Below, one piece after another: positions 6,121 through 47,287 of a stretch of DNA of 64,000 nucleotides. The stretch is from UHGV virus genome UHGV-0240317; one strand, written 5' to 3'. The notes under the pieces were generated by a model. It worked only from the letters and a program-made list of their open reading frames with translations, did no database searches and was not told the origin of the DNA. The translations under genes were made by a program, and so were the position numbers. This stretch comes from a virus. Position 1 is the first letter of the stretch. Each line of letters starts with the position of its first letter.

Positions 6121-6549
6121 ATGAAAGAGTATGTAGGTAAAGAGCTTGACATTGTAGATGCAAAGACACAGAGGTATATAACCACTGTTAAGTTTCTTGG
6201 AATTAGTGATATGAGTGATTTTTATCCTCTCCACTGCATAGTGCTAGACAAATTTGAGGTCTGTGGTATTAATTTTAATGAGGATAACTTTATAAGCTTT
6301 GATAAGGACGGTTTCTGGCGTGGTAAGAATCATCCTCAAGCAAATGATTTTGATATGCGTCTAGTGATACCACAAAAAGGTAACCAACAAAACGTAAAAG
6401 ATATCCTTGTAGAAGCCTATGCAGAAGGTATAATAGATGTTGTGAATGATGTTGAAAAAGCTTTAAAACTCATCATGCCACATTTAGAATCTGGAAAGCT
6501 GACTTTAGAGATGCTTAATAGGGTTATTCGGAGAGCTTATGAAAATTAA
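6121..6549 (+). CDS. hypothetical protein
   Basis: ORF with RBS. Confidence 0.6.
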   Translation: MKEYVGKELDIVDAKTQRYITTVKFLGISDMSDFYPLHCIVLDKFEVCGINFNEDNFISFDKDGFWRGKNHPQANDFDMRLVIPQKGNQQNVKDILVEAYAEGIIDVVNDVEKALKLIMPHLESGKLTLEMLNRVIRRAYEN

Positions 6550-7609: not shown

Positions 7610-9225
7610 AAAATTTTATCGGTTGTTCCAACCTCTGGGTCACCATCATATGTGAATAAAAATATCTATCCTTCTTAACAACCTTCTTAAGCTTACTCTC
7701 TATATATAGTTATATAGTACTATATAGTATCTTAGTATCTATCTAGTGGTCTTAATAGCCCCTCTGTATAGCCCTTCTAAACACTCTTCTAACAAGCCTT
7801 CTTAACAACCTATACAATCACCTTAACCATCTCTCTACACTCTCTTAGAAGCTCCTATACACCTCTTAATCTCTATGTCAGCTATGTTACTCTCTATAGA
7901 TGTTCACTAGGTATTACTAAGCCTCTATATAGACTTTTTTAACAAACTTAACAGGAGTATCTTTACAGACCTTATCTCACAAGGTCTAACACGGTACTAA
8001 CAAGGTATCTTATAAGCCTGTTATTACCTGTATTTTTAAAAGGCTGTATAGGTAATTATTCAGAATCTTAAAATTTTTATAAAATAGGACTATCAAGTCA
8101 TTTTTTAGGGTCTTTGAAGGAACTGAAAAATATCTGTCTAGGATGTATATCTGCTTGGTAGCCCTTAACAGCTCCCTTACAAGTACTTTGCAGAATTTTA
8201 AAGTATCCTTAACAATCTCTTAACAGTTCTCACACCTTCTTAACAACTCTTCAAAGGTCTTAACAGATTCTTAACAGAACTAACAAGGCTGTAACAAGTT
8301 CTTAACAGTCAATACATGGTATTTATAGTTTCTTAACAGATGACTAATAAGAGCTAACAAGTTAATTTTTAAGAGTTATTTTGTAGGGATTGGTAACAAT
8401 ACCAATTAAGATAATTAACAAGTTTCTAACAAGTGTTTAATCTTTTTAACAAGCTATTAACATGGTCACAGTGGTTGGTTACAAACACAACTTCTCTTTC
8501 TTATCGTTCCCTTTGCTTCTTAGTGATTCTTTAAACATACCTCTTAAAAGCTCTGTACAGCTCTGTATAGCCTCTTTTAAGTCTCTTCCTAGTAGTTACA
8601 CCCCAACTGTACAGATAGCTCTTTATAGGGCTTTACAGGGGCTTTTAAGGCTATGTCAAAGACTCTTACAAGGCTTTTACGTGGTCTTAACAGAGATTTA
8701 ACAAGGGGCTAACAAGTTGCTAACAAGTGCCTTAAAAGCATAACTATGTAGGGTTTGTTAAGAAATTGTTGAGAAAATGTTAAGGGGGCTAGCATTTACG
8801 TAACTTTGAAGATACATTTACGTAACTTTATAGCCCCTTTTACGTAACTTCAAAGTAACTTTAAAGCCCCTATAACATACTTTTTAGTGACTATCAAGGG
8901 GTTGTTTAGTTATTCACAAGATAGCTAACGAGATAATAAAGCTTACACCCTTATAAGATTCTTTTAAGGCTCTAGGAAGCTTTATAAAGGGCTTTTTAGG
9001 GTGAGTTAATGCAATCCCTTAAGTTAGGTTGATAAGGCTGTTATAGAGCTTTATAGAGCGTTTAAATGGGCCATCCCCTTTCTGGGGGTTATTGGCTTTT
9101 ATTTAAGTTGATTTGATAAGAGGTTATAGAGTAGACTATAGAGTTATTGCTTTTAAGGTCTGATAAGATTCTGGAAAGGTGAGGAAAGGGATTGTATAGG
9201 GGTTTGATAAGACGTAAAAAAAAAA
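7610..9225. repeat. ORF-free repeat-rich region (iteron-like motifs)
   Basis: many copies of CTTAACA(A/G)/CTAACAAG, three TTTACGTAACTT (8810-8860), four TGATAAG + TATAGAG (9040-9220); no credible ORF. Confidence 0.6.
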
Positions 9226-10351: not shown

Positions 10352-10693
10352 TTAACTGATGAATATTTTTTCAGGTTTTACATAGCTGATACGTTGGTTT
10401 TTTAGCAGGTCATCCCATAACAAGGCGGCAATGTGCCCATATCCGGCCTCACGCAGACCCTTCATCGTTTCAACTCGACTCTCAAAACGATTTGCGTAAT
10501 ACTCGCTATTAAGTGTCGTTTTGTTCCCTTCGTTATCTGTATGGATGATTTGCATCACTTGAAAGGGGCTGACATCCTCGCCTTTGTTCCACTGCTCAAA
10601 GTATTTTAGGCACTGCATAGGTGACATCTTATCACTTACTTGAGTTGACCAAGATGAATCTTCTTTATCGGTAATTATAGTTACATAAGCCAT
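10352..10693 (-). CDS. hypothetical protein
   Basis: ORF; class A element upstream. Confidence 0.6.
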   Translation of the reverse strand: MAYVTIITDKEDSSWSTQVSDKMSPMQCLKYFEQWNKGEDVSPFQVMQIIHTDNEGNKTTLNSEYYANRFESRVETMKGLREAGYGHIAALLWDDLLKNQRISYVKPEKIFIS

Positions 10694-10765
10694 TTTAGAA
10701 TCTCCTAGTTTAAGGACTTTATTTAGTGGGGAAGGTCATTCCCTCCCCGTTGATTGACAATTTAC
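10694..10765 (-). repeat. class A conserved inter-genic element
   Basis: same consensus. Confidence 0.7.
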
Positions 10766-10784
10766 AGACTTTTATCAGGCTTGT

Positions 10785-11018
10785 CTAGTCTTTTTCAATG
10801 ATAATTTCATATTGACCATCGACACTGTCAAAATAGACGCCGTCTTCATCTTCTGTCTTAAAGTAGCATTGAATATCATCACTGGCGGGATAGTCTTGTC
10901 TTGCTATCTGGCAAACTTGAATAGCATTTTCTTTACTTCCTGTGAACTCCTCAAGCCCTTTAAAATCACATGAATGGCCATTACAAATTGAGAGGATGAG
11001 ATAAACGGTTGTTAGCAT
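10785..11018 (-). CDS. hypothetical small cysteine-rich protein with hydrophobic N-terminus
   Basis: ORF; GCCCCTTGTAGGGGC hairpin just upstream. Confidence 0.5.
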   Translation of the reverse strand: MLTTVYLILSICNGHSCDFKGLEEFTGSKENAIQVCQIARQDYPASDDIQCYFKTEDEDGVYFDSVDGQYEIIIEKD

Positions 11019-11084
11019 GATTTAAGCCCTCTAAAAGCCCCTACAAGGGGCTGATTAGTGTTTATAAGGTGATTGCATAGGTTT

Positions 11085-11627
11085 TTAGAAAAAGCTCTTT
11101 AAATCCTCTTCTGCAATGTTTCCTGTCAGTGTATCCATGATGTCACAAAAAACCTGAATACTGTCGGACTGTTGAACACTTTTAGCAAGAAGCTCCAGAG
11201 ACTCATCAAGATAGTTTAAATTTGGATTATCCAATGAAGGAAGACAAAAAGGTGAATACATAGCGTTAAACTCTGTTGTATAGACCTTTTTAATCCAATT
11301 TACATCAAAGTACTCTGTAAAACTTGCTACACTCGACATATTATCACAAGAATAATCATCGTTTAGCTCATCCTCTGGAATATCGAGTTCTAAGATAACA
11401 ATATTTTGAGTCTTCATCTGAAAAGCTGCGGTGATAGTGGCATTGCCTAGAGCCTGCTGGATACCTTCAGAGATTATCTCTTCCTCATCGTCGCCATAGA
11501 TTTTATTTTCTGGGTACACGTAAAAATTGCCGTCCATATCCGAACAATTCCATGCGCCAGATGGTTTATCACCGTTATTAATCAGGTTGAGGAAATTTTC
11601 TTGAGTAGTACCGTGAAAGCATTTCAT
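11085..11627 (-). CDS. hypothetical protein (acidic)
   Basis: ORF; class B element upstream. Confidence 0.6.
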   Translation of the reverse strand: MKCFHGTTQENFLNLINNGDKPSGAWNCSDMDGNFYVYPENKIYGDDEEEIISEGIQQALGNATITAAFQMKTQNIVILELDIPEDELNDDYSCDNMSSVASFTEYFDVNWIKKVYTTEFNAMYSPFCLPSLDNPNLNYLDESLELLAKSVQQSDSIQVFCDIMDTLTGNIAEEDLKSFF

Positions 11628-11712
11628 TTTTGAATCTCCAGTTTAGGATTTAGTGGTAAAGCTCTTTATCTGGGGCTTACTTTATCGAACTGTAAGCCCC
11701 TTGTAAAGTACT
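11628..11712 (-). repeat. class B conserved inter-genic element
   Basis: GAATCTCCAGTTTAGGATTTAGTGGTAAAGCTCTTTATCTGGGGCTTAC...GTAAGCCCCTTGTAAAGTACTTTA with perfect hairpin. Confidence 0.7.
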
Positions 11713-11916
11713 TTATTTGTTATTTTTTACAACTTTTAAAACCGCACGATAACCTAAGCAATAGGAATCACCGAAGAGCGACCGGCCCATGAAGGAGTCC
11801 TCTGTAATATCTTTCGCCGTGACGGTTTTTTCTACGCCGTGAAATAGGACTACATCACCAACTTTAATATCTTTGATGTGCGTTGTTTCAATGGTTAAAC
11901 CGTTAATAATAGCCAT
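11713..11916 (-). CDS. hypothetical protein
   Basis: ORF; class A element upstream. Confidence 0.55.
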   Translation of the reverse strand: MAIINGLTIETTHIKDIKVGDVVLFHGVEKTVTAKDITEDSFMGRSLFGDSYCLGYRAVLKVVKNNK

Positions 11917-12015
11917 TTTTGAATCTCCTAGTTTAAGGGTTTTATTTAGTGGGGAGGTTATCGCCCCCGTTGATGTGTAATTTAATCTATCTAAAAACCA
12001 GTGTCAACAAAATTT
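11917..12015 (-). repeat. class A conserved inter-genic element (long variant)
   Basis: shares a 41 bp tail GTTGATGTGTAATTTAATCTATCTAAAAACCAGTGTCAACA with the copy at 12780-12867. Confidence 0.7.
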
Positions 12016-12420
12016 TTAGAGTTCTGCATAAATTGCATCGCAGATACCACGAAAATCATGATTTGTCAAATTACGTTGTAACCAAGTGGCGAAAAAGTCA
12101 GCTATTGCAAAGTTAGCGTAATACTCGACAGATAGCCACACTTTAACAGCAAACCGAAACATTTTCAAATCAAGCTCTTTATTCATTACCTTAGATTTGC
12201 CTAACATGTCAGCCATTTCATATTGTGCACCGTCTAGCGTGATACCTGCTGCAACGTCAATCAATGAGATTTTCACATTTTCAACGTCTAAGATAACACT
12301 TTGAATCTTCCCGATAATGTTGTGCAATGTTTCATCAGGCGCTGATGATGTCAGAACATTAATCCTGTTGACGGTCAAACGTGCTTTTAAAATTGATAAT
12401 TCACGGTTATTAATAGCCAT
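12016..12420 (-). CDS. hypothetical protein
   Basis: ATG at 12420 (MAINN...) with GGAGAA RBS; track ORF starts at an upstream TTG. Confidence 0.55.
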   Translation of the reverse strand: MAINNRELSILKARLTVNRINVLTSSAPDETLHNIIGKIQSVILDVENVKISLIDVAAGITLDGAQYEMADMLGKSKVMNKELDLKMFRFAVKVWLSVEYYANFAIADFFATWLQRNLTNHDFRGICDAIYAEL

Positions 12421-12506
12421 TTTTAAGTTCTCCAATTTAGGATTGAGTAGTAAAGCTCTTTATCTGGGGCTTACTCTATCGAACTGTAAGCCCCTTGTAA
12501 AGTACT
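12421..12506 (-). repeat. class B conserved inter-genic element
   Basis: same consensus and hairpin as 11628-11712. Confidence 0.7.
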
Positions 12507-12779
12507 TTACATTAAATGCAGTTTTTTGCCTTTTACTATAATGTAACTCGATGCGCTATTGCTTTGCACATCCTGATAAATTCTGCGCAAACGTCCTTCG
12601 TAGTATACTTTCCAACTGGTTGGAATCTTTTTCCCGTATCCTGTAGCAGTTTTTTGGAGTCCTGCAACTTGCCAATCTAAGATATGAGTTTCAGCCTGTA
12701 AATCCTCAAAGTGCATGACACCATCTACATAGTGACGTAGTGTGACATTTAAAGTACGACCGTTGTTAGTAGTATACAT
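12507..12779 (-). CDS. hypothetical protein
   Basis: ORF; class A element upstream. Confidence 0.55.
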   Translation of the reverse strand: MYTTNNGRTLNVTLRHYVDGVMHFEDLQAETHILDWQVAGLQKTATGYGKKIPTSWKVYYEGRLRRIYQDVQSNSASSYIIVKGKKLHLM

Positions 12780-12867
12780 TTTGGAATCTCCAGTTTAGGA
12801 CTTTATTTAGTGGGGAAGGTCATTCCCTCCCCGTTGATGTGTAATTTAATCTATCTAAAAACCAGTG
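12780..12867 (-). repeat. class A conserved inter-genic element (long variant)
   Basis: same consensus; shared 41 bp tail. Confidence 0.7.
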
Positions 12868-13200
12868 TCAACAGTTTTGTTTTCGTTTGCTCAATTCTTG
12901 AACAATTACAGCGTAGTAGTCTTTTAAGTCACTGACATTTAAAGCATTTATCAGAGAATTATAATCATCAACTAACTGAAAATCATCTTTGAAGATGTCA
13001 CTTATCTGATAGGTTTTCGCTTTGTATCTGAAGCTCATCTCTAGCCGCTTTATTTGCTCATCACTTAAACGCTCCAGAAAGCTCCCTACAAGGTTATTGC
13101 TAACCTGTTGTGTGATTGCCTTACTTGCCAGATTATAGGCGCTATAAGCCTTATAGAGCGCCAGAATAGCGATGATTGCAGTTATGCCCATCATTAACAT
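12868..13200 (-). CDS. hypothetical membrane protein
   Basis: N-terminal hydrophobic helix MLMMGITAIIAILALY. Confidence 0.55.
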   Translation of the reverse strand: MLMMGITAIIAILALYKAYSAYNLASKAITQQVSNNLVGSFLERLSDEQIKRLEMSFRYKAKTYQISDIFKDDFQLVDDYNSLINALNVSDLKDYYAVIVQELSKRKQNC

Positions 13201-13490
13201 GGTGCTTCCTCTTTACGTGACACTTTGCCATTTACAGTTATCTCATAAGAATCTAGTAAATCGCTTTTAGATTTGACAGGATTTTTAAGAGTATCATCAT
13301 AGATATTAACTTGCAATACAGGTTTTTTATACTCCCTGCAACTATTCCATAAGCAAATCACTACACGACGACCTTTTATTTTGCCGTGTAACCATTCCAT
13401 AACATCATGGCTGTTTCTTGATGTTTCAATGAAATCAATTTTGTTGAGTAATTTGCTTAGATTTTCACGCACTTGATTTGATAATTTCAT
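13194..13490 (-). CDS. hypothetical protein
   Basis: ORF; hybrid A/B element upstream. Confidence 0.55.
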   Translation of the reverse strand: MKLSNQVRENLSKLLNKIDFIETSRNSHDVMEWLHGKIKGRRVVICLWNSCREYKKPVLQVNIYDDTLKNPVKSKSDLLDSYEITVNGKVSRKEEAPC

Positions 13491-13582
13491 TTTAGAATCT
13501 CCTAGTTTAAGGGCTTTATTTGATAAATCTCTTTATCTGGGGCTATCCTACCAGCTTGATAACCCCGTGTAAAGAAATCTGT
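13491..13582 (-). repeat. hybrid class A/B inter-genic element
   Basis: class A 5' part (CTCCTAGTTTAAGGGCTTTATTT) fused to class B-like CTCTTTATCTGGGGCT hairpin. Confidence 0.6.
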
Positions 13583-14095
13583 TTAGTTCTTAAAGATATT
13601 CATCACTGAATCTTTTAATGCTTCCAAGCGTTCTAATACTTCAGTTTCTGCGTCTGAATTGTTCACCTCTTCTTTTAGTCTATCCTCTAAATCATCGCCG
13701 TCACTATAGCACCAATCAAAGGCATATCCTAGATAAAAACTCTCTAAAACCGTGTTGCCATTTGCATCGATAACTTTCGCGGCAAGGTTGTATTCTGAAG
13801 CCTCTAAATCTCTTTCTAGTTCTTTCTGTAAGCTGGTGTAAGCCTCTTTTGATGGGTTTTCCCGGCCTTGTTTTGCATAGTCACTAGAAAGCTGTTTAAG
13901 GTTATAATTTAAAGGGATTGCATATTTAAAATCGTTACGCTGACAGTTAGGGTTTTTAATAGTCACGCCGCCTTGATGGTCATCTGTAAACTTCCAATTA
14001 TCAAGATTATGGCTTGCTTCGTAGCAATTAACAGCTTCATAAATAATGGTGAATTTTTCTTTTACAACTTCAAAGGTAGCGTCTACAGTTTTCAT
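13583..14095 (-). CDS. hypothetical protein
   Basis: ORF; class B element upstream. Confidence 0.6.
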   Translation of the reverse strand: MKTVDATFEVVKEKFTIIYEAVNCYEASHNLDNWKFTDDHQGGVTIKNPNCQRNDFKYAIPLNYNLKQLSSDYAKQGRENPSKEAYTSLQKELERDLEASEYNLAAKVIDANGNTVLESFYLGYAFDWCYSDGDDLEDRLKEEVNNSDAETEVLERLEALKDSVMNIFKN

Positions 14096-14180
14096 TTTGG
14101 AATCTCCAGTTTAGGATTTAGTGGTAAAGCTCTTTATCTGGGGCTTAAGATATCAGCTTTTAAGCCCCTTGTAAAGTACT
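14096..14180 (-). repeat. class B conserved inter-genic element
   Basis: GGGGCTTAA-gatatcagctt-TTAAGCCCC hairpin plus conserved leader. Confidence 0.7.
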
Positions 14181-14474
14181 TTATTTGTTAATTTTTAGCT
14201 TTGCATAACTTCTCATTGTACGAATGAAGGATGTTAATGCTACGCGTCTAATATATGCCTTTTTCGTGTATACATTTGTCTTCCCGATAGTGTTTACACA
14301 TGTAAAAAGGTTTATCAGTGAATTTTTTAACTTCAACTGTTTATCAACCTTCACGCCCCACCTTACAGCAGTTTGTTTTCCGTTGTCAACCACTTTCCCG
14401 CCTAACTTTTTCGCCATGATGCGAGCGTCATCACGAGTTTTTGCAGGAATTACAACGTTTTTGATAATAGCCAT
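14181..14474 (-). CDS. hypothetical basic protein
   Basis: ATG at 14474 (MAIIKN...) with GGAGAA RBS. Confidence 0.55.
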   Translation of the reverse strand: MAIIKNVVIPAKTRDDARIMAKKLGGKVVDNGKQTAVRWGVKVDKQLKLKNSLINLFTCVNTIGKTNVYTKKAYIRRVALTSFIRTMRSYAKLKINK

Positions 14475-14562
14475 TTTTAAGTTCTCCAATTTAGGATTGA
14501 GTGATAAAGCTCTTTATCTGGGGCTTAAGATATCAGCTTTTAAGCCCCCTGTAAAGTACTTT
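14475..14562 (-). repeat. class B conserved inter-genic element
   Basis: near-identical to 14096-14180. Confidence 0.7.
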
Positions 14563-14769
14563 TTATTTATCGTAGTAGTAAATTGCTGTCTGTCTTGTAA
14601 ACTTCTTAGTGTTTATTGTAAGGTAGCAATTAGAATTAATAGCCGTTTCTACATAGTTGCAATAGTCAGTTTCTGAAATTCTACGCCATGCGCCGCACAC
14701 TTGCATGTAAAAACGTTTTACATTTGTATTAACGTTGGTTGTAACCATCAATTCACGACTGTAAAGCAT
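14563..14769 (-). CDS. hypothetical protein (first gene of the cluster)
   Basis: ORF preceded by conserved leader CCCACTTCCTAAACTGGAGAATCAAAA and the promoter below. Confidence 0.55.
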   Translation of the reverse strand: MLYSRELMVTTNVNTNVKRFYMQVCGAWRRISETDYCNYVETAINSNCYLTINTKKFTRQTAIYYYDK

Positions 14770-14809
14770 TTTTGATTCTCCAGTTTAGGAAGTGGGCTTG
14801 ATTGCCCGT

Positions 14810-14838
14810 CTGATGCAAATATTAGATAACCATACTCA
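14810..14838 (-). promoter_or_regulatory. sigma70-like promoter for the small-gene cluster
   Basis: minus strand TTGACT - 17 nt - TAATAT with AT-rich upstream region; ~35 nt before the ATG at 14769. Confidence 0.65.
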
Positions 14839-14984
14839 AAGAGTCAATAGGAATTTTAAAAATATTTTTGCAAAAATTGTAATGAAACGGGTGCGCGCGA
14901 CTACCACAAAACAGAACTACAATCAAGAATTATTTTTCAATCCGCTACAAATTTTTCTGTTGACTTTTATTTCCAGATGTGGTA

Positions 14985-15240
14985 GCCTTGTGAGAAATGG
15001 CGACATCCCCACCTGTACCCACCTACCTGCACAATTCTAAAATGATTTTTCTTGCCCGACCTGAGCGGGGTCTGCACGTTTTGAAAATGAAAAAGCTCTT
15101 TGGAGATTACCTGCACAGTTTGAAAATGAATTTTCTCTTTGGAGTTCAAAACTTTCTCTATAGATTTCTCTACAGAACTCTACCTGCACAATCCTGAAAT
15201 GAAAAAGCCCTCCTTACCTGAAAAATTTACCAGATAAGAA
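14985..15240. repeat. four copies of a ~38 bp direct repeat
   Basis: ACCTGCACA(A/G)TT(C/T)TGAAAATGA(A/T)TTTT..CTTTGGAG repeated; no credible ORF. Confidence 0.6.
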
Positions 15241-15275
15241 AGGCTTAGTCTATTGTGAATATCTTACAGAGTTTC

Positions 15276-16061
15276 TTAGTTCTTTGCGTCTAAGAAGGTA
15301 ACTTCTGATGATGAGAAAATTTCTTCGATATCCTCATCAGTTCTTGCATAGATGTAGGTGTCTGCATCGTTACCAAATGTCACGGCAATTCTATGATTGC
15401 TCTTCGACAGGTGGGTAACTAGAGCGTTACTTAGAGACATCTTTTCAACCGGAGGGTTACTTTGATGTATCTTACCTTTTCTTCGTCTGAAGAGGGTAAC
15501 TTCATTATCTGCGAACACTGCTACACCTGCAAAGTATTCTGGTTCACAGTAGTTCTTCCAACCTGAGCGTAACTTATGGTACATCTCTCCTTCGTAGACA
15601 TATAGATAAACATCTACACTCTTCATTGCCTGATTGATAATAACTGTGACAGCTTGAGGGTCAAGTCCACCAATACCTGCACCAATCATAGGTAAACCAA
15701 CTTTCTTCAACTGATTAACTTCACAGTATCTGTTAAGCTGTTTCAAAGATGACTCTAAAGCACTGTATCGGGCATCTTTACCAGTCTTAAGCTGAGTGTA
15801 AAGGTTAGCTATACGACCTTGTTTTAAACGTGCTACAGAGAAATTACCCAGTAAATTTTCACAGGGTTTGTGTCCTATACCACCTGCATATAGATAAACT
15901 TCTGTATCGGTCTCATATGCTTTTGGGTAAAGTTTAGAAATCTTGTCAGCGATACCTGCACCCATTAAATTCATACAGTTGCAACCGTGACCGATGATGT
16001 CAAACTTACCTTTATCAAATGCGGCAAAGATATCACCATTGATTATTTTTACAATACCCAT
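15276..16061 (-). CDS. macrodomain protein (TARG1/DarG-like) with unknown C-terminal domain
   Basis: NGDIF..DIIGHGCNCMNLMGAGIA and GLPMIGAGIGGLD match TARG1-type macrodomain motifs as recalled. Confidence 0.7.
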   Translation of the reverse strand: MGIVKIINGDIFAAFDKGKFDIIGHGCNCMNLMGAGIADKISKLYPKAYETDTEVYLYAGGIGHKPCENLLGNFSVARLKQGRIANLYTQLKTGKDARYSALESSLKQLNRYCEVNQLKKVGLPMIGAGIGGLDPQAVTVIINQAMKSVDVYLYVYEGEMYHKLRSGWKNYCEPEYFAGVAVFADNEVTLFRRRKGKIHQSNPPVEKMSLSNALVTHLSKSNHRIAVTFGNDADTYIYARTDEDIEEIFSSSEVTFLDAKN

Positions 16062-44876: not shown

Positions 44877-47019
44877 ATGGAAAACGTAGATTTTAAAAAC
44901 TTACATTTAGTTGGTGATACAGAAACTGATGGTTTACTCCTTGAGTTCACTAAAGTGCACGTAATGGCTTTCGCAGACTATAAATCTGACGATGAAGAGC
45001 CACCTGTATGGGTCTTTACAGATGAGCCTATCCTCGGTCACAAGTATACCAAGTACATTAAGGGTGGCTTACGTGAAGGTGTTGAATTTGCGTTAAAGGC
45101 AAAACGTCTTTGCATCCATAATGGTCTCGGTTATGACTGGTGGGTTTTTAATCACATTGCACCTGATTTATGGAACTTTGATAATCCAAAGTGTAAACCG
45201 TGGAGTAATTTCTTTCAGGATTCTCTTATCCAGTCTCGTGTTCAGTGGATGGATAGACCAACCCCAAAAGGTTATAAGGGTGCTCATGGCTTGGCTGCAT
45301 GGGGTGCTCGTGTTGGTGTCCGTAAACCAGAGATTGAACATTGGGGTGTGTGGAATGCAGAAATCTTCACTCGTGTTGTAGAAGATATCCGTATTAACGC
45401 CAAAACTAAACGGGCACTTGATAATGAATATCTCAAGCTTAAGAAGTGTGGCATAGATACTTATGAAACCTACATGCGAGCTAAAGAAACATCTTTTTGG
45501 ATGAGTCAACAAGCTATCAATGGCTGGAAAGCTGATAAAGAGCTTATGGAGTTCCATGTAAAGGAACTTGACAAGTTGACTAATGAGCTTGCTTCAGAGG
45601 TTGAACCACATCTACCTCCAACTATTAAGACCAAAGGTAAAGTCACTGGAGAAGAGTTTGCAAAAGCTTGGAATGAGTATGTTGAAACATTTGGTCATGC
45701 AGATGGACTGAAGAGAATTACCAAGTACCCTAAGACAAAGTATCGTCAGCAGGTACGTAATGGTGAGATGCAGACTTATGAAATCAAACCATTTGGTAAG
45801 CCAACTACAAAGATTTTTAACATTGAAAAGAGAAATTGCTATACACCAACCAACTCTGTAACTGGTGAAGAGTACAAGGAAGGTTTTGTAGCAATGAAGG
45901 ATGCTCGTGCAATTTGCAATGAGTTGAATGCAAAGATTGGTAAGAAATGCAAAGACTGGAAGCCAGCAAAAACAGTTAAGACTGTGAAGTACTATAACAG
46001 CCATGTTGTTAACCACTTTGAGCTTGAGTCAAGTCGCTACACAGGTTTGATTGATGCACCATATACACCAATCGAGTTCGAAGTTTCTCGTATGACTCAG
46101 GTAGCAGTTGTTAAAGACTACTTGAAATCAGTTGGTTGGATTCCAGATGACTGGAACTATAAGAAAGACTCTGATGGTCGTCCTGTTAAGGTTTGTCGCT
46201 TCAAAGACAACAAAAAGATGATTACAAAGCATCCTAAATGGCAGGAAATGGTTGAACGGTGTGGTTTGAGCTATGTTGAACATGAAGGCGTCCAGTACAT
46301 TGAGCATAACTGGTCTGTGAAGAAATACACAGATTTGCTTGAGCCTTGCTTAATCCGTACTTCACCAAAACTTACTGAATCATCTTATGATACGATTGAA
46401 GGTGAGCTTGGACAGAAGATTGCTAAGTACTATACTTTGATGCACCGACGCAGAACTATTGAGAACTCAAAGGATGATGAGAAAGGTTGGTTAAACCAGA
46501 TTCGTCCTGATGGTCGCCTTAGTGCTGGTGCAATGGTGTTTGGTACTTCAACTGGACGTATGACACAATATGGTATTGTAAACGTACCGTCTGGTGCTGC
46601 TGTCTATGGAGCACCTATGAGGGAGGTGTGGATTTGTGAAGAGGGGACTAACATTGTTTCTGTTGACCAGAACTCAGCCCAGCTTGTTTTACTGTGTAAC
46701 TTTATGGGTGATAAAGACTTCACCAAAGCAGTAACTGAAGGTAAAGAGTCAGTAGAGTTCACTAAGCAAGATGATGGTAGATACTACTGTAAACATCTTG
46801 ACAAGTATCTTAACCCAGAAACTGACAAGTATCTGCGTTATGATGCTGAAAATGACCTCTATGAAGTCTACACAGGGACTGATGCGCATACACTGAACAG
46901 TATTTACTTTGGTCTTAACAAGGAAGAAGATATTGTCCGTTGTAGGGAGACACAGGGTGAGGAACTTCTCCACGAGATTACAAAAGGTCGTAAGAAAGCC
47001 AAAAATGGCATTTATGCGT
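44877..47019 (+). CDS. DNA polymerase family A, exon 1
   Basis: start at MENVDF with GAGGGAG RBS; exo I DTETDGL; motif A VSVDQNSAQL; first half of motif B RKKAKNGIYA. Confidence 0.85.
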
Positions 47020-47287
47020 CAGTGGCGCATGTAAAACGTTGTGAATTGCTGGAAGCCTAAGTCTGTAAAGATATGGTAATCAGCAGCGAAGCCTCTTGAG
47101 AGGAACGTTCAGAGACTATCGAAAAGCATACTTAATGTATGAACTGAGTAGAGTAGGGTGGTAAGCTAATGACCATACCCAAGTGCAACGGTAGCATCAC
47201 TGCTACGTGATATAGTCCGACACTCCGTAGAAATGCGGAGAAGTTCATAAGAGAACTGGTACACCTTGCGAGTGTATTGACCAGATG
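47020..47287 (+). mobile_element. ORF-less group I intron in the DNA polymerase gene
   Basis: Q-like AATCAGCAG, R-like GTTCAGAGACTA, S-like GATATAGTCC; stops in the polymerase frame; boundaries inferred. Confidence 0.75.

What the first reader, a model, noticed from the sequence alone, without database searches (positions are those of the whole stretch)
14985..15240. Four tandem ~38 bp direct repeats in the leader region upstream of the small-gene cluster promoter
Between the macrodomain gene end (15276) and the promoter at 14810-14838 there are four copies of ACCTGCACA(A/G)TT(C/T)TGAAAATGA(A/T)TTTT..CTTTGGAG. Each contains a GGAG and an ATG but no extended ORF. These could be operator sites for a phage regulator controlling the early cluster, a terminator/antiterminator array, or very short leader peptides.
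Basis: seen in the sequence. Interest (0 to 1): 0.45.

Follow-up and report, generated by a model that had tools for sequence, protein, structure and literature searches.

The report
Conserved four-repeat array in Felix-O1-like phages
A non-coding gap in this Felix-O1-type phage genome holds four same-direction copies of a two-part DNA motif that is kept across the whole phage subfamily. It is most likely a docking array for a DNA-binding protein, perhaps a replication origin, but its job is unproven.

Summary
There are four same-orientation copies of (A/T)5-TCATTT-N7-GTGCAG, read on the transcribed minus strand. Their start-to-start spacing is 45, 39 and 73 bp, not a strict 38-bp tandem array. 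The motif occurs nowhere else in the 64-kb window, and nowhere else in one complete relative genome.

The window is a Felixounavirus. The array lies in a 506-bp non-coding gap, between the intrinsic terminator of the macro-domain gene and a sigma-70 promoter for the terminal small-gene cluster. The copy nearest the macro gene overlaps the terminator.

The array is conserved in Felixounavirus, Suspvirus, Mooglevirus and Erwinia Kolesnikvirus. In the Erwinia phage the four copies are truly tandem (37, 37, 39 bp), although the neighbouring macro protein is only about 43% identical. Motif cores are better conserved than the flanking coding DNA.

The following were tested and not supported:
- leader peptides
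- a terminator array
- a structured RNA
- a known RNA family
- a genome terminus
- a mimic of a host repeat array

An A-tract that flips strand between copies favours recognition as DNA. My best reading is an iteron-like protein-binding array, possibly a transcription-activated origin. The function is unproven, and I found no description of it in the literature I could search.

The parts
15276..16061 (-). Upstream gene: macro-domain protein, annotated as 'phosphatase' in relatives. It is the last gene of the long early transcription unit.
   Evidence: ORF; Pfam Macro PF01661, E = 1e-07; annotation in relatives.
15205..15246 (-). Intrinsic terminator of the macro-gene operon: 17-pair stem, 8-nt loop, tail TTTCATTTCA. 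Its 3' arm and U-tract are also the 5' part of repeat unit A.
   Evidence: Terminator scan. The hairpin is kept with different 5' arms in Moogle-type phages, and with changes on both arms in L040, BPS17L1 and phiWec177. It is annotated as a terminator in ASO1A and wV8.
15184..15207 (-). Repeat unit A core: CTTTTT-TCATTT-CAGGATT-GTGCAG.
   Evidence: conserved position in relatives.
15153..15176 (-). 12-nt x2 tandem repeat (TCTGTAGAGAAA-like) in the long spacer between units A and B. It is only partly conserved.
   Evidence: Tandem Repeats Finder; alignment.
15111..15144 (-). Repeat unit B: CTCCAAAGAG-AAAAT-TCATTT-TCAAACT-GTGCAG.
   Evidence: This unit is missing in natural 3-unit variants.
15072..15105 (-). 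Repeat unit C: CTCCAAAGAG-CTTTTT-TCATTT-TCAAAAC-GTGCAG.
15027..15050 (-). Repeat unit D core: AAAAA-TCATTT-TAGAATT-GTGCAG. It is preceded by GGTCGGGCAAG, nearly identical to unit 3 of the Erwinia phage.
14968..15026 (-). Variable G/C-rich, strand-asymmetric tract. This window carries the G-rich-on-minus-strand allele; many relatives carry a C-rich allele, of which this one is probably an inversion.
   Evidence: Two alleles. Reverse-complement alignment scores 33 against 13 for the forward alignment, reached by 1 of 2000 shuffles. A C-rich tract is also present in the Erwinia phage.
14923..14968 (-). Conserved 46-nt AT-rich block (74% A+T): AAAAGTCAACAGAAAAATTTGTAGCGGATTGAAAAATAATTCTTGA.
   Evidence: Alignment; coordinates and A+T content.
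14960..14988 (+). Candidate antisense promoter pointing into the array: TTGACT, 17 nt ending in TGG, then TAGCCT. The predicted transcription start is near 14995. It falls below the threshold of the consensus scan.
   Evidence: The -35 hexamer TTGACT is invariant, and TA lies exactly 17 nt downstream in both alleles. The Erwinia phage has a strong antisense TTGACG-18-TATACT at the equivalent place. It was not detected by the scan in this window.
14819..14869 (-). Sigma-70 promoter of the first gene of the small-gene cluster (TTGACT-17-TAATAT), with a 100% A+T UP-like element at 14852-14869.
   Evidence: Annotated as a promoter in phage ASO1A.
14563..14769 (-). First small gene downstream (68 aa, PHROG 5293, unknown function).

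Best explanation
The four repeats are a cis-acting DNA element. Each is an oriented binding site of about 23 bp for a sequence-specific protein, so together they form an iteron-like array.

A site consists of an A-tract, then TCATTT, then a 7-bp A/T-rich spacer, then GTGCA. The two conserved blocks are about 11.5 bp apart centre to centre, so they face the same side of the helix. The A-tract and the spacer place narrow minor grooves on that side too.

The array sits in a gap that sense transcription does not normally enter, because it lies downstream of a strong terminator. It is followed by a G/C-skewed tract, an AT-rich conserved block and a pair of back-to-back promoters, one of which points into the array.

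My committed guess for its job is that it seeds a nucleoprotein complex for initiating phage DNA replication, helped by transcription from the flanking promoters, as at lambda ori or the T7 and T4 origins.

Shown:
- The repeats exist.
- They are unique in the genome.
- They are conserved across the subfamily.
- They are non-coding.
- They show no conserved RNA fold.
- The anatomy around them is as described.

Inferred:
- That a protein binds.
- Which protein binds.
- The origin function.

I put roughly 0.55-0.6 on 'DNA-level protein-binding array' and 0.3 on 'replication origin' specifically. The confidence field gives the latter.
For: Uniqueness. There are four exact motif matches within 176 bp and none elsewhere in the window. 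There are exactly four in the complete 89,439-bp genome of phage D4, all in the array.

Conservation. All 29 IMG/VR relatives with the macro gene keep the units at the same positions. This includes Suspvirus and Mooglevirus, where the macro gene is only 69-74% identical at the nucleotide level and four-fold degenerate sites are 56-72% identical. Against those phages, unit cores are 84-95% identical and the rest of the gap 59-73%. Across the diverse set, 72% of core columns are invariant against 44% elsewhere. The Erwinia Kolesnikvirus, with a macro protein 43% identical, has a terminator, four tandem units (37, 37, 39 bp), a C-rich tract and promoters at the same place.

DNA-level rather than RNA-level. 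The five bases before TCATTT are only A or T. They appear as T5 or as AnTm with no TpA step, in 67 distinct unit instances. That equivalence makes sense for duplex DNA geometry and not for RNA. No conserved RNA structure appears on either strand apart from the terminator. Fold energies are no better than shuffles (z about -0.5 for the antisense RNA and +0.5 to -1.8 for the whole gap). Units B-D lie downstream of a strong terminator.

Origin-like context. The sites are direct and non-palindromic. Next to them are a 74% A+T conserved block and a 100% A+T UP region, and divergent promoters. Relatives encode a primase/helicase and a DNA polymerase, but the one annotated genome I read lists no initiator, so a transcription-assisted origin is plausible. 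In the Erwinia phage, the right half-site read as reverse complement matches the DnaA box TTWTNCACA at 8 of 9 positions (CTATGCACA x3, TTATGCACG).
Against: No binding protein has been identified and no experiment exists.

Unit spacing (37, 39, 41, 45, 73-77 bp) is not a fixed number of helical turns, and is longer than the 19-23 bp typical of classical iterons.

Cumulative GC skew shows no inflection at 15 kb. Its extremes lie at about 9-10 kb and 44-45 kb, where gene orientation switches.

The DnaA-box resemblance is only 6 of 9 in the coliphages. An 8 of 9 match somewhere within a 37-bp unit has roughly a 5% chance by my own estimate, and it leaves the TCATTT half unexplained.

Natural phages with three units exist (BPS17L1, phiWec177, L040, L063), so four copies are not strictly required.

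The G/C-skewed tract appears to be inverted in this window's lineage. That weakens any model needing a G-rich transcript for R-loop priming.

The antisense promoter has a weak -10 hexamer here (TAGCCT) and a weaker one (TAAGAG) in the other allele.
Confidence: 0.3

Rival explanations
1. Transcriptional operator or insulator. A phage or host regulator binds the four sites to control the two nearby promoters. It might block antisense transcription from entering the macro operon, or time the switch-on or shut-off of the terminal small-gene module.
For: The array lies between a terminator and back-to-back promoters. It is 30-205 nt downstream of the predicted antisense start, a good place for a roadblock. 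One annotated relative genome contains a small 'transcriptional regulator' gene. The DNA-level features are the same as for the best explanation.
Against: The sites are 180-380 bp upstream of the sense promoter. About ten other promoters of the same small-gene cluster use other repeated cassettes and lack the motif. The sites are non-palindromic direct repeats, unlike most phage operators. Such deep conservation of several long sites is more than control of a single promoter usually needs.
Confidence: 0.2
2. RNA-level function. The antisense promoter makes a non-coding RNA that carries four ACCUGCAC-N7-AAAUGA modules. These would act as a sponge or decoy for an RNA-binding protein, or as a mimic of a repeat-type (type III, ToxI-like) antitoxin.
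For: A conserved antisense -35 hexamer points into the array, and the Erwinia phage has a strong antisense promoter there. The unit length of 37-45 nt is in the range of type III antitoxin repeats; this and the following point rest on my own knowledge of ToxI, not on a test. The unit shares the words GTGCAG and AAAUUCA with the ToxI repeat as I recall it.
Against: A5 and U5 are interchangeable at the same unit position. There is no conserved fold and no excess stability. There is no Rfam match. No terminator is usable on the antisense strand, because the G-U pairs of the sense hairpin become C-A mismatches; no plus-strand terminator was found nearby. No related array turned up in 185,579 species genomes, in PLSDB plasmids or in 5,426 complete E. 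coli genomes. No toxin-like gene lies adjacent.
Confidence: 0.13
3. DNA-entry pause or module boundary, working like the injection stop signal of T5. The array, bound by a host protein such as membrane-associated DnaA, would hold the genome after the terminal 8-9% has entered. The small early genes would then be expressed first.
For: The array lies 6.9-7.05 kb from the predicted physical end in this window. It lies 7.35-7.53 kb (8.2-8.4%) from the real end in phage D4, and 7.7 kb (9%) from the end in the Erwinia phage. Everything between the array and the end is a variable set of small genes, several of which have predicted sigma-70-type promoters. In T5 the first-step-transfer DNA is 7.9% of the genome and is bounded by a conserved non-coding repeat region with DnaA boxes.
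Against: I found no report of two-step entry in Felix-O1-like phages. The array has none of the large inverted repeats of the T5 signal, and at best weak DnaA boxes in the coliphages. Which genome end enters first is unknown. The small genes are transcribed toward the end. The similarity in distance may be coincidence.
Confidence: 0.07
4. A functionless relic: repeated slippage or duplication of the terminator's 3' half, drifting neutrally. A variant of this is a set of back-up terminators or short leader peptides.
For: Unit A is part of the terminator, and units A and C look like a stem end followed by a U-tract (GCTTTTTCATTTT).
Against: The cores are conserved well above neighbouring four-fold degenerate sites and the rest of the gap, across four genera. 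Units B-D have no hairpin. Two units carry A-tracts instead of U-tracts. No reading frame is conserved.
Confidence: 0.04

Closest known systems
Iteron arrays of replication origins (lambda ori with four O-protein sites next to an AT-rich region; plasmid Rep iterons; T4 oriE). Comparison from my own knowledge.
   Same: Several direct, same-orientation copies of one long site. A single locus per genome. An adjacent AT-rich segment and nearby promoters that could give transcriptional activation. A copy number that is stable among relatives.
   Different: The period is 37-45 bp or more, rather than about 20-24 bp, and is not in helical phase. The sites are bipartite and asymmetric rather than small palindromes. 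No initiator gene has been recognised. The array is intergenic rather than inside an initiator gene. No replication data exist.
Injection stop signal (iss) region of T5-like phages (Davison, bioRxiv 10.1101/866236).
   Same: A non-coding repeat region conserved more strongly than nearby genes. It sits about 8% of the genome length from a physical end, at the inner edge of a variable block of small early genes. DnaA-box-like 9-mers are present; TTATGCACA, one of the DnaA boxes listed for T5-like phages, differs by one base from the Erwinia-phage half-sites (CTATGCACA, TTATGCACG).
   Different: The T5 region is about 1.2-1.6 kb with large inverted repeats, palindromes and eight near-consensus DnaA boxes in pairs. 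Here there are four direct 23-bp cores in about 180 bp. The DnaA resemblance is weak in the coliphages. Two-step entry is unknown for this family.
Type III toxin-antitoxin RNA antitoxins (ToxI, 36-nt repeats) and phage pseudo-ToxI mimics. Comparison from my own knowledge.
   Same: Direct repeats of about 36-45 nt in a non-coding stretch of a phage genome, with short shared words (GTGCAG, AAAUUCA).
   Different: There is no adjacent toxin gene and no promoter-repeats-terminator layout on one strand. Spacing is irregular. A and U tracts are interchangeable. No conserved pseudoknot-type fold was found. No similar array was found in bacterial genomes, plasmids or E. coli genomes.
Repeated promoter/stem-loop cassettes between early genes (the 57-bp and 39-bp repeats of Felix O1, PMC3185647; T4 PeSL cassettes, from my own knowledge).
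   Same: Repeated regulatory DNA in the same early region. The word AAAGAGCTTT is shared between units B/C and the 5' leader of the cassette at 14502-14515.
   Different: Those cassettes are dispersed one per gene and contain a promoter and a hairpin. The array units are clustered, lack a promoter and a hairpin, and carry a motif found nowhere else.

Membership tests
Iteron-type replication origin | Cluster of direct repeats of one site, at one or few places in the genome | tested here: met
   Four same-orientation copies, found only at this locus in the window and in one complete relative genome.
Iteron-type replication origin | Repeats bound by a dedicated initiator protein | not testable with these tools
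   No initiator is annotated in the one fully annotated relative genome I read. Binding needs a footprint or pull-down.
Iteron-type replication origin | Adjacent easily melted AT-rich region | tested here: inconclusive
   A 74% A+T conserved block (14923-14968) and a 100% A+T stretch (14852-14869) lie 60-170 bp from unit D. The latter also serves as a promoter UP element. Unwinding was not tested.
Iteron-type replication origin | Regular, helically phased spacing of repeats | tested here: not met
   Spacings of 37, 39, 41, 45, 73, 75 and 77 bp in different lineages.
Iteron-type replication origin | Supports initiation of replication | not testable with these tools
   GC skew gives no signal at the site, but in this genome it follows transcription direction.
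DnaA-box cluster | 9-mers matching TTWTNCACA | tested here: inconclusive
   8 of 9 in all four units of the Erwinia phage, and 6-7 of 9 in this window and in Moogle-type phages. The chance level for one unit is about 5% by my own estimate.
Intrinsic (rho-independent) terminator array | G+C-rich hairpin followed by a U-tract at each unit | tested here: not met
   Only one terminator, at 15246-15205, overlapping unit A. Units B-D have no hairpin, and units B and D have A-tracts.
Leader peptides / micro-ORFs | Reading frame, start and stop conserved among relatives | tested here: not met
   Antisense frames differ between phages. Spacings are not multiples of three in several lineages.
Type III antitoxin (ToxI-like) repeat RNA or phage mimic | Tandem repeats flanked by a promoter and terminator on one strand, next to a toxin gene, or similar to a host antitoxin array | tested here: not met
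   No toxin-like neighbour. No similar arrays in genomes, plasmids or E. coli. No usable antisense terminator.
Structured non-coding RNA / Rfam family | Match to a covariance model, or a conserved fold with covariation | tested here: not met
   No Rfam hit at the gathering threshold or at E up to 10. The alignment fold finds only the terminator. Fold z-scores are not significant.
Genome terminus / packaging site | Coincides with the physical DNA ends or the terminal repeat | tested here: not met
   The experimentally determined 608-bp terminal repeat of UAB_Phi87 maps to window 8155-8781. The D4 and Erwinia phage records carry terminal repeats 7.3-7.7 kb from the array.
T5-type injection stop signal | Non-coding conserved repeat region about 8% from the entering end; paired DnaA boxes; large inverted repeats; two-step DNA transfer | tested here: inconclusive
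   The distance (8-9%) and the conservation are met. Inverted repeats and consensus DnaA pairs are not met. Two-step transfer is not testable here.

The most novel reading that the evidence does not exclude
The array is the boundary signal of a first-entering genome segment. A host protein, perhaps DnaA, catches the four sites as the DNA enters. This pauses entry after the terminal 8-9% so that the small early genes act first. It would be a T5-like two-step infection, in a myovirus family where this has never been described.
Probability: 0.07. Interest if true: 0.8.

Novelty: new member of a known kind. Interest (0 to 1): 0.45.

Why it matters
Felix O1 and its relatives are widely used for Salmonella and E. 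coli typing, biocontrol and therapy, yet their replication origin and the logic of their early regulation are unknown (PMC3185647).

This array is among the best conserved non-coding sequences I examined in the family. It is kept from coliphages to Erwinia phages while the neighbouring genes diverge and get swapped.

It therefore gives a defined target of about 200 bp for finding the origin, a new DNA-binding protein, or an entry or boundary signal. It also matters practically:
- Genome engineers should not use this 'empty' gap as an insertion site.
- Annotators should not call ORFs across it.

Tried and rejected
1. Physical genome end or terminase site. Two IMG/VR contigs stop at the same base just past unit D, and one of them runs into a Nextera adapter. 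I rejected this because the experimentally mapped terminal repeat of UAB_Phi87, a phage that carries the array, maps 6.3 kb away at 8155-8781. Two deposited genomes also carry terminal repeats 7.3-7.7 kb from the array. The contig breaks are probably assembly or coverage failures at the C-rich tract.

2. Protein coding on the antisense strand, as annotated in some records. Rejected because the frames are not conserved.

3. A general promoter motif for middle or late genes. Rejected because the motif occurs only at this locus. No consistent -35/-10 register exists on either strand (plus my own inspection).

4. A known RNA family or a structured RNA. No support.

5. A mimic of a host repeat array, such as a type III antitoxin. 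The two-unit pattern in 185,579 species genomes gave seven unrelated tandem repeats. There was nothing in plasmids or E. coli genomes.

6. More distant contexts for the array. Scans of IMG/VR and the metagenome collection found it only in Ounavirinae-type contigs, plus chance tandem repeats. Two phages with a 40%-identical macro gene have no such gap.

7. By-eye comparison with binding sites of CRP, IHF, Fis, LexA, NtrC, MarA/SoxS, sigma-E, sigma-54, Chi, KOPS and ops. None fits. These are comparisons from memory, not tests.

8. Literature. The Felix O1 genome paper lists other repeats but not these. I found no paper on an origin, on transcript mapping or on intergenic repeats for this family.

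Full report
WHAT THE WINDOW IS. The region matches 247 phage records, almost all Felixounavirus (Felix-O1-like myoviruses of Escherichia, Salmonella and Shigella), at 90-95% identity. Genes from about 10.7 to 44 kb lie on the minus strand. The finding sits in a 506-bp gap without conserved ORFs. On one side is a macro-domain gene (15276-16061, minus strand; Pfam Macro). On the other is the first of a run of small genes of unknown function (14563-14769 and onward). The same gap of about 500 bp is present in annotated relatives.

THE OBSERVATION. Four direct repeats are present. Read on the minus strand, which is the strand of the flanking genes, they share TCATTT-N7-GTGCAG. Exact matches lie at 15184-15202 (unit A), 15111-15129 (B), 15072-15090 (C) and 15027-15045 (D). 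Only one 1-mismatch match occurs anywhere else in the 64 kb, where 0.56 matches with up to 1 mismatch are expected.

They are not a regular 38-bp tandem array. The spacing is 73, 39 and 45 bp, and Tandem Repeats Finder does not see them.

ANATOMY OF THE GAP, in the direction of transcription:
- A strong intrinsic terminator at 15246-15205, with a 17-pair stem. Its 3' arm and U-tract are also the start of unit A.
- A 73-bp interval containing a 12-nt x2 repeat.
- Units B, C and D.
- A 59-bp G/C-rich tract that varies between phages (15026-14968).
- A conserved 46-nt block, 74% A+T (14968-14923).
- A 100% A+T stretch followed by the sigma-70 promoter TTGACT-17-TAATAT (14847-14819), a leader hairpin, GGAG and the ATG at 14769.

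On the opposite strand, the conserved block ends in TTGACT (14960-14965). Seventeen bases later, after TGG, comes TAGCCT (14983-14988). This is a candidate promoter pointing into the array, although it is too weak for the consensus scan.

CONSERVATION. This is the main result. In 29 IMG/VR loci found through the macro protein, the units sit at the same offsets.

Against the Suspvirus and Mooglevirus genomes:
- The macro gene is 69-74% identical in DNA, and 56-72% at four-fold degenerate sites.
- The 23-nt unit cores are 84-95% identical.
- The rest of the gap is 59-73% identical.
- Across 11 diverse genomes, 72% of core columns are invariant, against 44% elsewhere in the gap.

In Moogle-type phages units B, C and D all have the fuller form ACTCCAAAGrG-W5-TCATTT-N7-GTGCAGGT.

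Most telling is Erwinia phage vEam_PM_6 (Kolesnikvirus), whose macro protein is only 43% identical over its N-terminal 58%. Directly after that gene it has a terminator, then four truly tandem units at 37, 37 and 39 bp (…W5-TCATTT-N7-GTGCATAG…). These are followed by a C-rich tract and then back-to-back promoters. The antisense promoter, TTGACG-18-TATACT, points into the array. The sense promoter is TTGACT-17-TATATT. Its third unit is nearly identical to unit D of this window.

In the complete genome of phage D4 the motif occurs exactly four times, all in the array. Scans of IMG/VR and of the metagenome collection with a two-unit pattern found the array only in Ounavirinae-type contigs, apart from chance tandem repeats.

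Conservation is strong but not absolute:
- A sub-lineage (BPS17L1, phiWec177, L040, L063) has three units, with unit B replaced.
- Single C-to-T changes in TCATTT occur in several phages.

WHAT IT IS NOT.
- Not coding. Antisense stop-free stretches change frame from phage to phage, and unit spacing is often not a multiple of three. Even so, some GenBank records annotate ORFs there.
- Not a terminator array. Only unit A is part of a hairpin. That hairpin is real, being kept with different or compensating arms in other lineages.
- Not a known or visibly structured RNA. There is no Rfam match, even at E = 10. The alignment fold recovers only the terminator. Fold energies of either strand are like shuffles.
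- Not a genome end. I followed this lead because two metagenomic contigs stop at the same base beside unit D, one running into adapter sequence. However, Bardina et al. mapped a 608-bp direct terminal repeat in UAB_Phi87, which carries the array. That repeat maps to window 8155-8781. The D4 and Erwinia records carry exact terminal repeats of 581 and 412 bp at their ends, 7.35-7.7 kb from the array.
- Not a copy of a host repeat array. There were no related hits in species-representative genomes, plasmids or complete E. coli genomes.

DNA OR RNA? Three observations favour DNA.
1. In 67 distinct unit instances, the five bases before TCATTT are always A or T. They are arranged as T5 or AnTm without a TpA step. 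A-tract and T-tract forms occupy equivalent positions: T, A, T, A in Felix and Moogle types, and T, T, A, T in the Erwinia phage. A-tracts on either strand are equivalent for duplex shape but not for an RNA.
2. The two invariant blocks, TCATTT and GTGCA, have centres about 11.5 bp apart, one helical turn. The A/T-rich spacer (YMRAWHY) and the A-tract fall at the intervening minor grooves. This inference matches a protein reading one face of the helix.
3. Units B-D lie behind a strong terminator on the sense strand.

The sites are asymmetric and all point the same way. That pattern is typical of iterons, response-regulator sites or two-domain binders, rather than of palindromic operators.

MECHANISM. 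I commit to a DNA-level array of protein-binding sites (about 0.55-0.6). Among possible jobs I rank a replication-origin-type complex first (0.3). It would be a unique locus of direct repeats beside an AT-rich block and flanked by promoters. The phage has a primase/helicase and a polymerase, but no recognised initiator in the annotation I read.

Against the origin idea:
- The irregular, unphased spacing.
- No skew signal at the site.
- The viable three-unit variants.
- The apparent inversion of the G/C-rich tract in this lineage (reverse-complement alignment score 33 against 13, reached by 1 of 2000 shuffles). This argues against a strict R-loop model.

The right half-site, read as reverse complement, resembles a DnaA box. 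The match is 8 of 9 in the Erwinia phage and 6 of 9 here. This is a lead only, and I estimate the chance level at about 5%.

Rivals:
- A local transcriptional operator or roadblock (0.2).
- An antisense RNA carrying four modules (0.13).
- A T5-like entry pause (0.07).
- A neutral relic (0.04).

The entry-pause idea rests on position. The array is 8-9% of the genome length from the physical end in three lineages, at the inner edge of a variable block of small early genes. This resembles the 7.9% first-step-transfer segment of T5 and its conserved non-coding stop region. Nothing else supports it.

NOVELTY. The Felix O1 genome paper lists several repeats but not these, and states that transcriptional regulation is not understood. 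I found no paper on an origin, on transcript mapping or on this element. Record annotations mark only the terminator and the promoter. As a kind of feature, a clustered set of direct repeats acting in cis is familiar. This motif, its subfamily-wide conservation and its position are, as far as I could search, undescribed. Hence 'new member of a known kind', with moderate interest (0.45).

Noticed in passing
window 8155-8781 (minus strand): [quoted passage not shown] It is rich in TGTTAAGA/CTGTTA words. It predicts that the physical genome end lies near 8155, and gene orientation converges on it from both sides.
   Followed up: partly
window 46957-47240 (+): Group I catalytic intron: Rfam RF00028, 62.3 bits, E = 2e-13, full-length match to the model. 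The host gene was not identified.
   Followed up: no
window 10690-14800: The small-gene cluster is built from repeated regulatory cassettes of promoter, hairpin and leader (108 nt x4, 55 nt x3, 45 nt x2 exact, and 33-34 nt RBS-proximal repeats). They correspond to the 57-bp and 39-bp repeats reported for Felix O1 and probably drive the gene shuffling seen between relatives.
   Followed up: partly
window 14968-15026: Two alleles of the tract next to unit D exist among close relatives. [quoted passage not shown] Some phages also have a 14-nt duplication (GTAGGTGGGTACAG). Both alleles keep TA exactly 17 nt after the antisense TTGACT.
   Followed up: partly
L012, L013, L019, L026 (IMG/VR contigs): Four metagenome-assembled Felix-like contigs end in or just past the array region. 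L012 and L013 end at the same base of the C-rich tract. L013 continues into Nextera adapter sequence, and L019 is chimeric after unit C. These look like assembly artefacts at a low-complexity tract, not genome ends.
   Followed up: yes
L073 (BPS17L1) 1330-1850; L075 (phiWec177); L040; L063: A natural sub-lineage has a different 3' end of the upstream gene, a terminator with compensating changes on both arms, and only three units. Unit B is replaced by a segment containing the palindrome ATCTGTAGGGGTCTGTACAGAT.
   Followed up: partly
L074 1483-1836; L073 1551-1778; L080 31926-32293: GenBank records annotate hypothetical proteins across the array (Silverhawkium gp124, BPS17L1 gp012, D4 CDS0131-0133). 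The reading frames are not conserved, so these are probably spurious gene calls.
   Followed up: yes
L077 1-9 (PP079182.1 start): The Erwinia phage record begins with TTCCGATCT, which looks like the tail of an Illumina adapter. It is followed by a 412-bp sequence repeated exactly at the record's end.
   Followed up: no
L042 / L126 (IMGVR_UViG_3300018080_002802) 6253-6321: An unrelated 10-kb viral contig has two 44-nt direct repeats, GGAGGCAATTTAAAAAyCAATCATTTTAACATAGTGCAGTG, in a non-coding stretch upstream of a gene. They share the TCATTT-N7-GTGCAG words, probably by chance.
   Followed up: no
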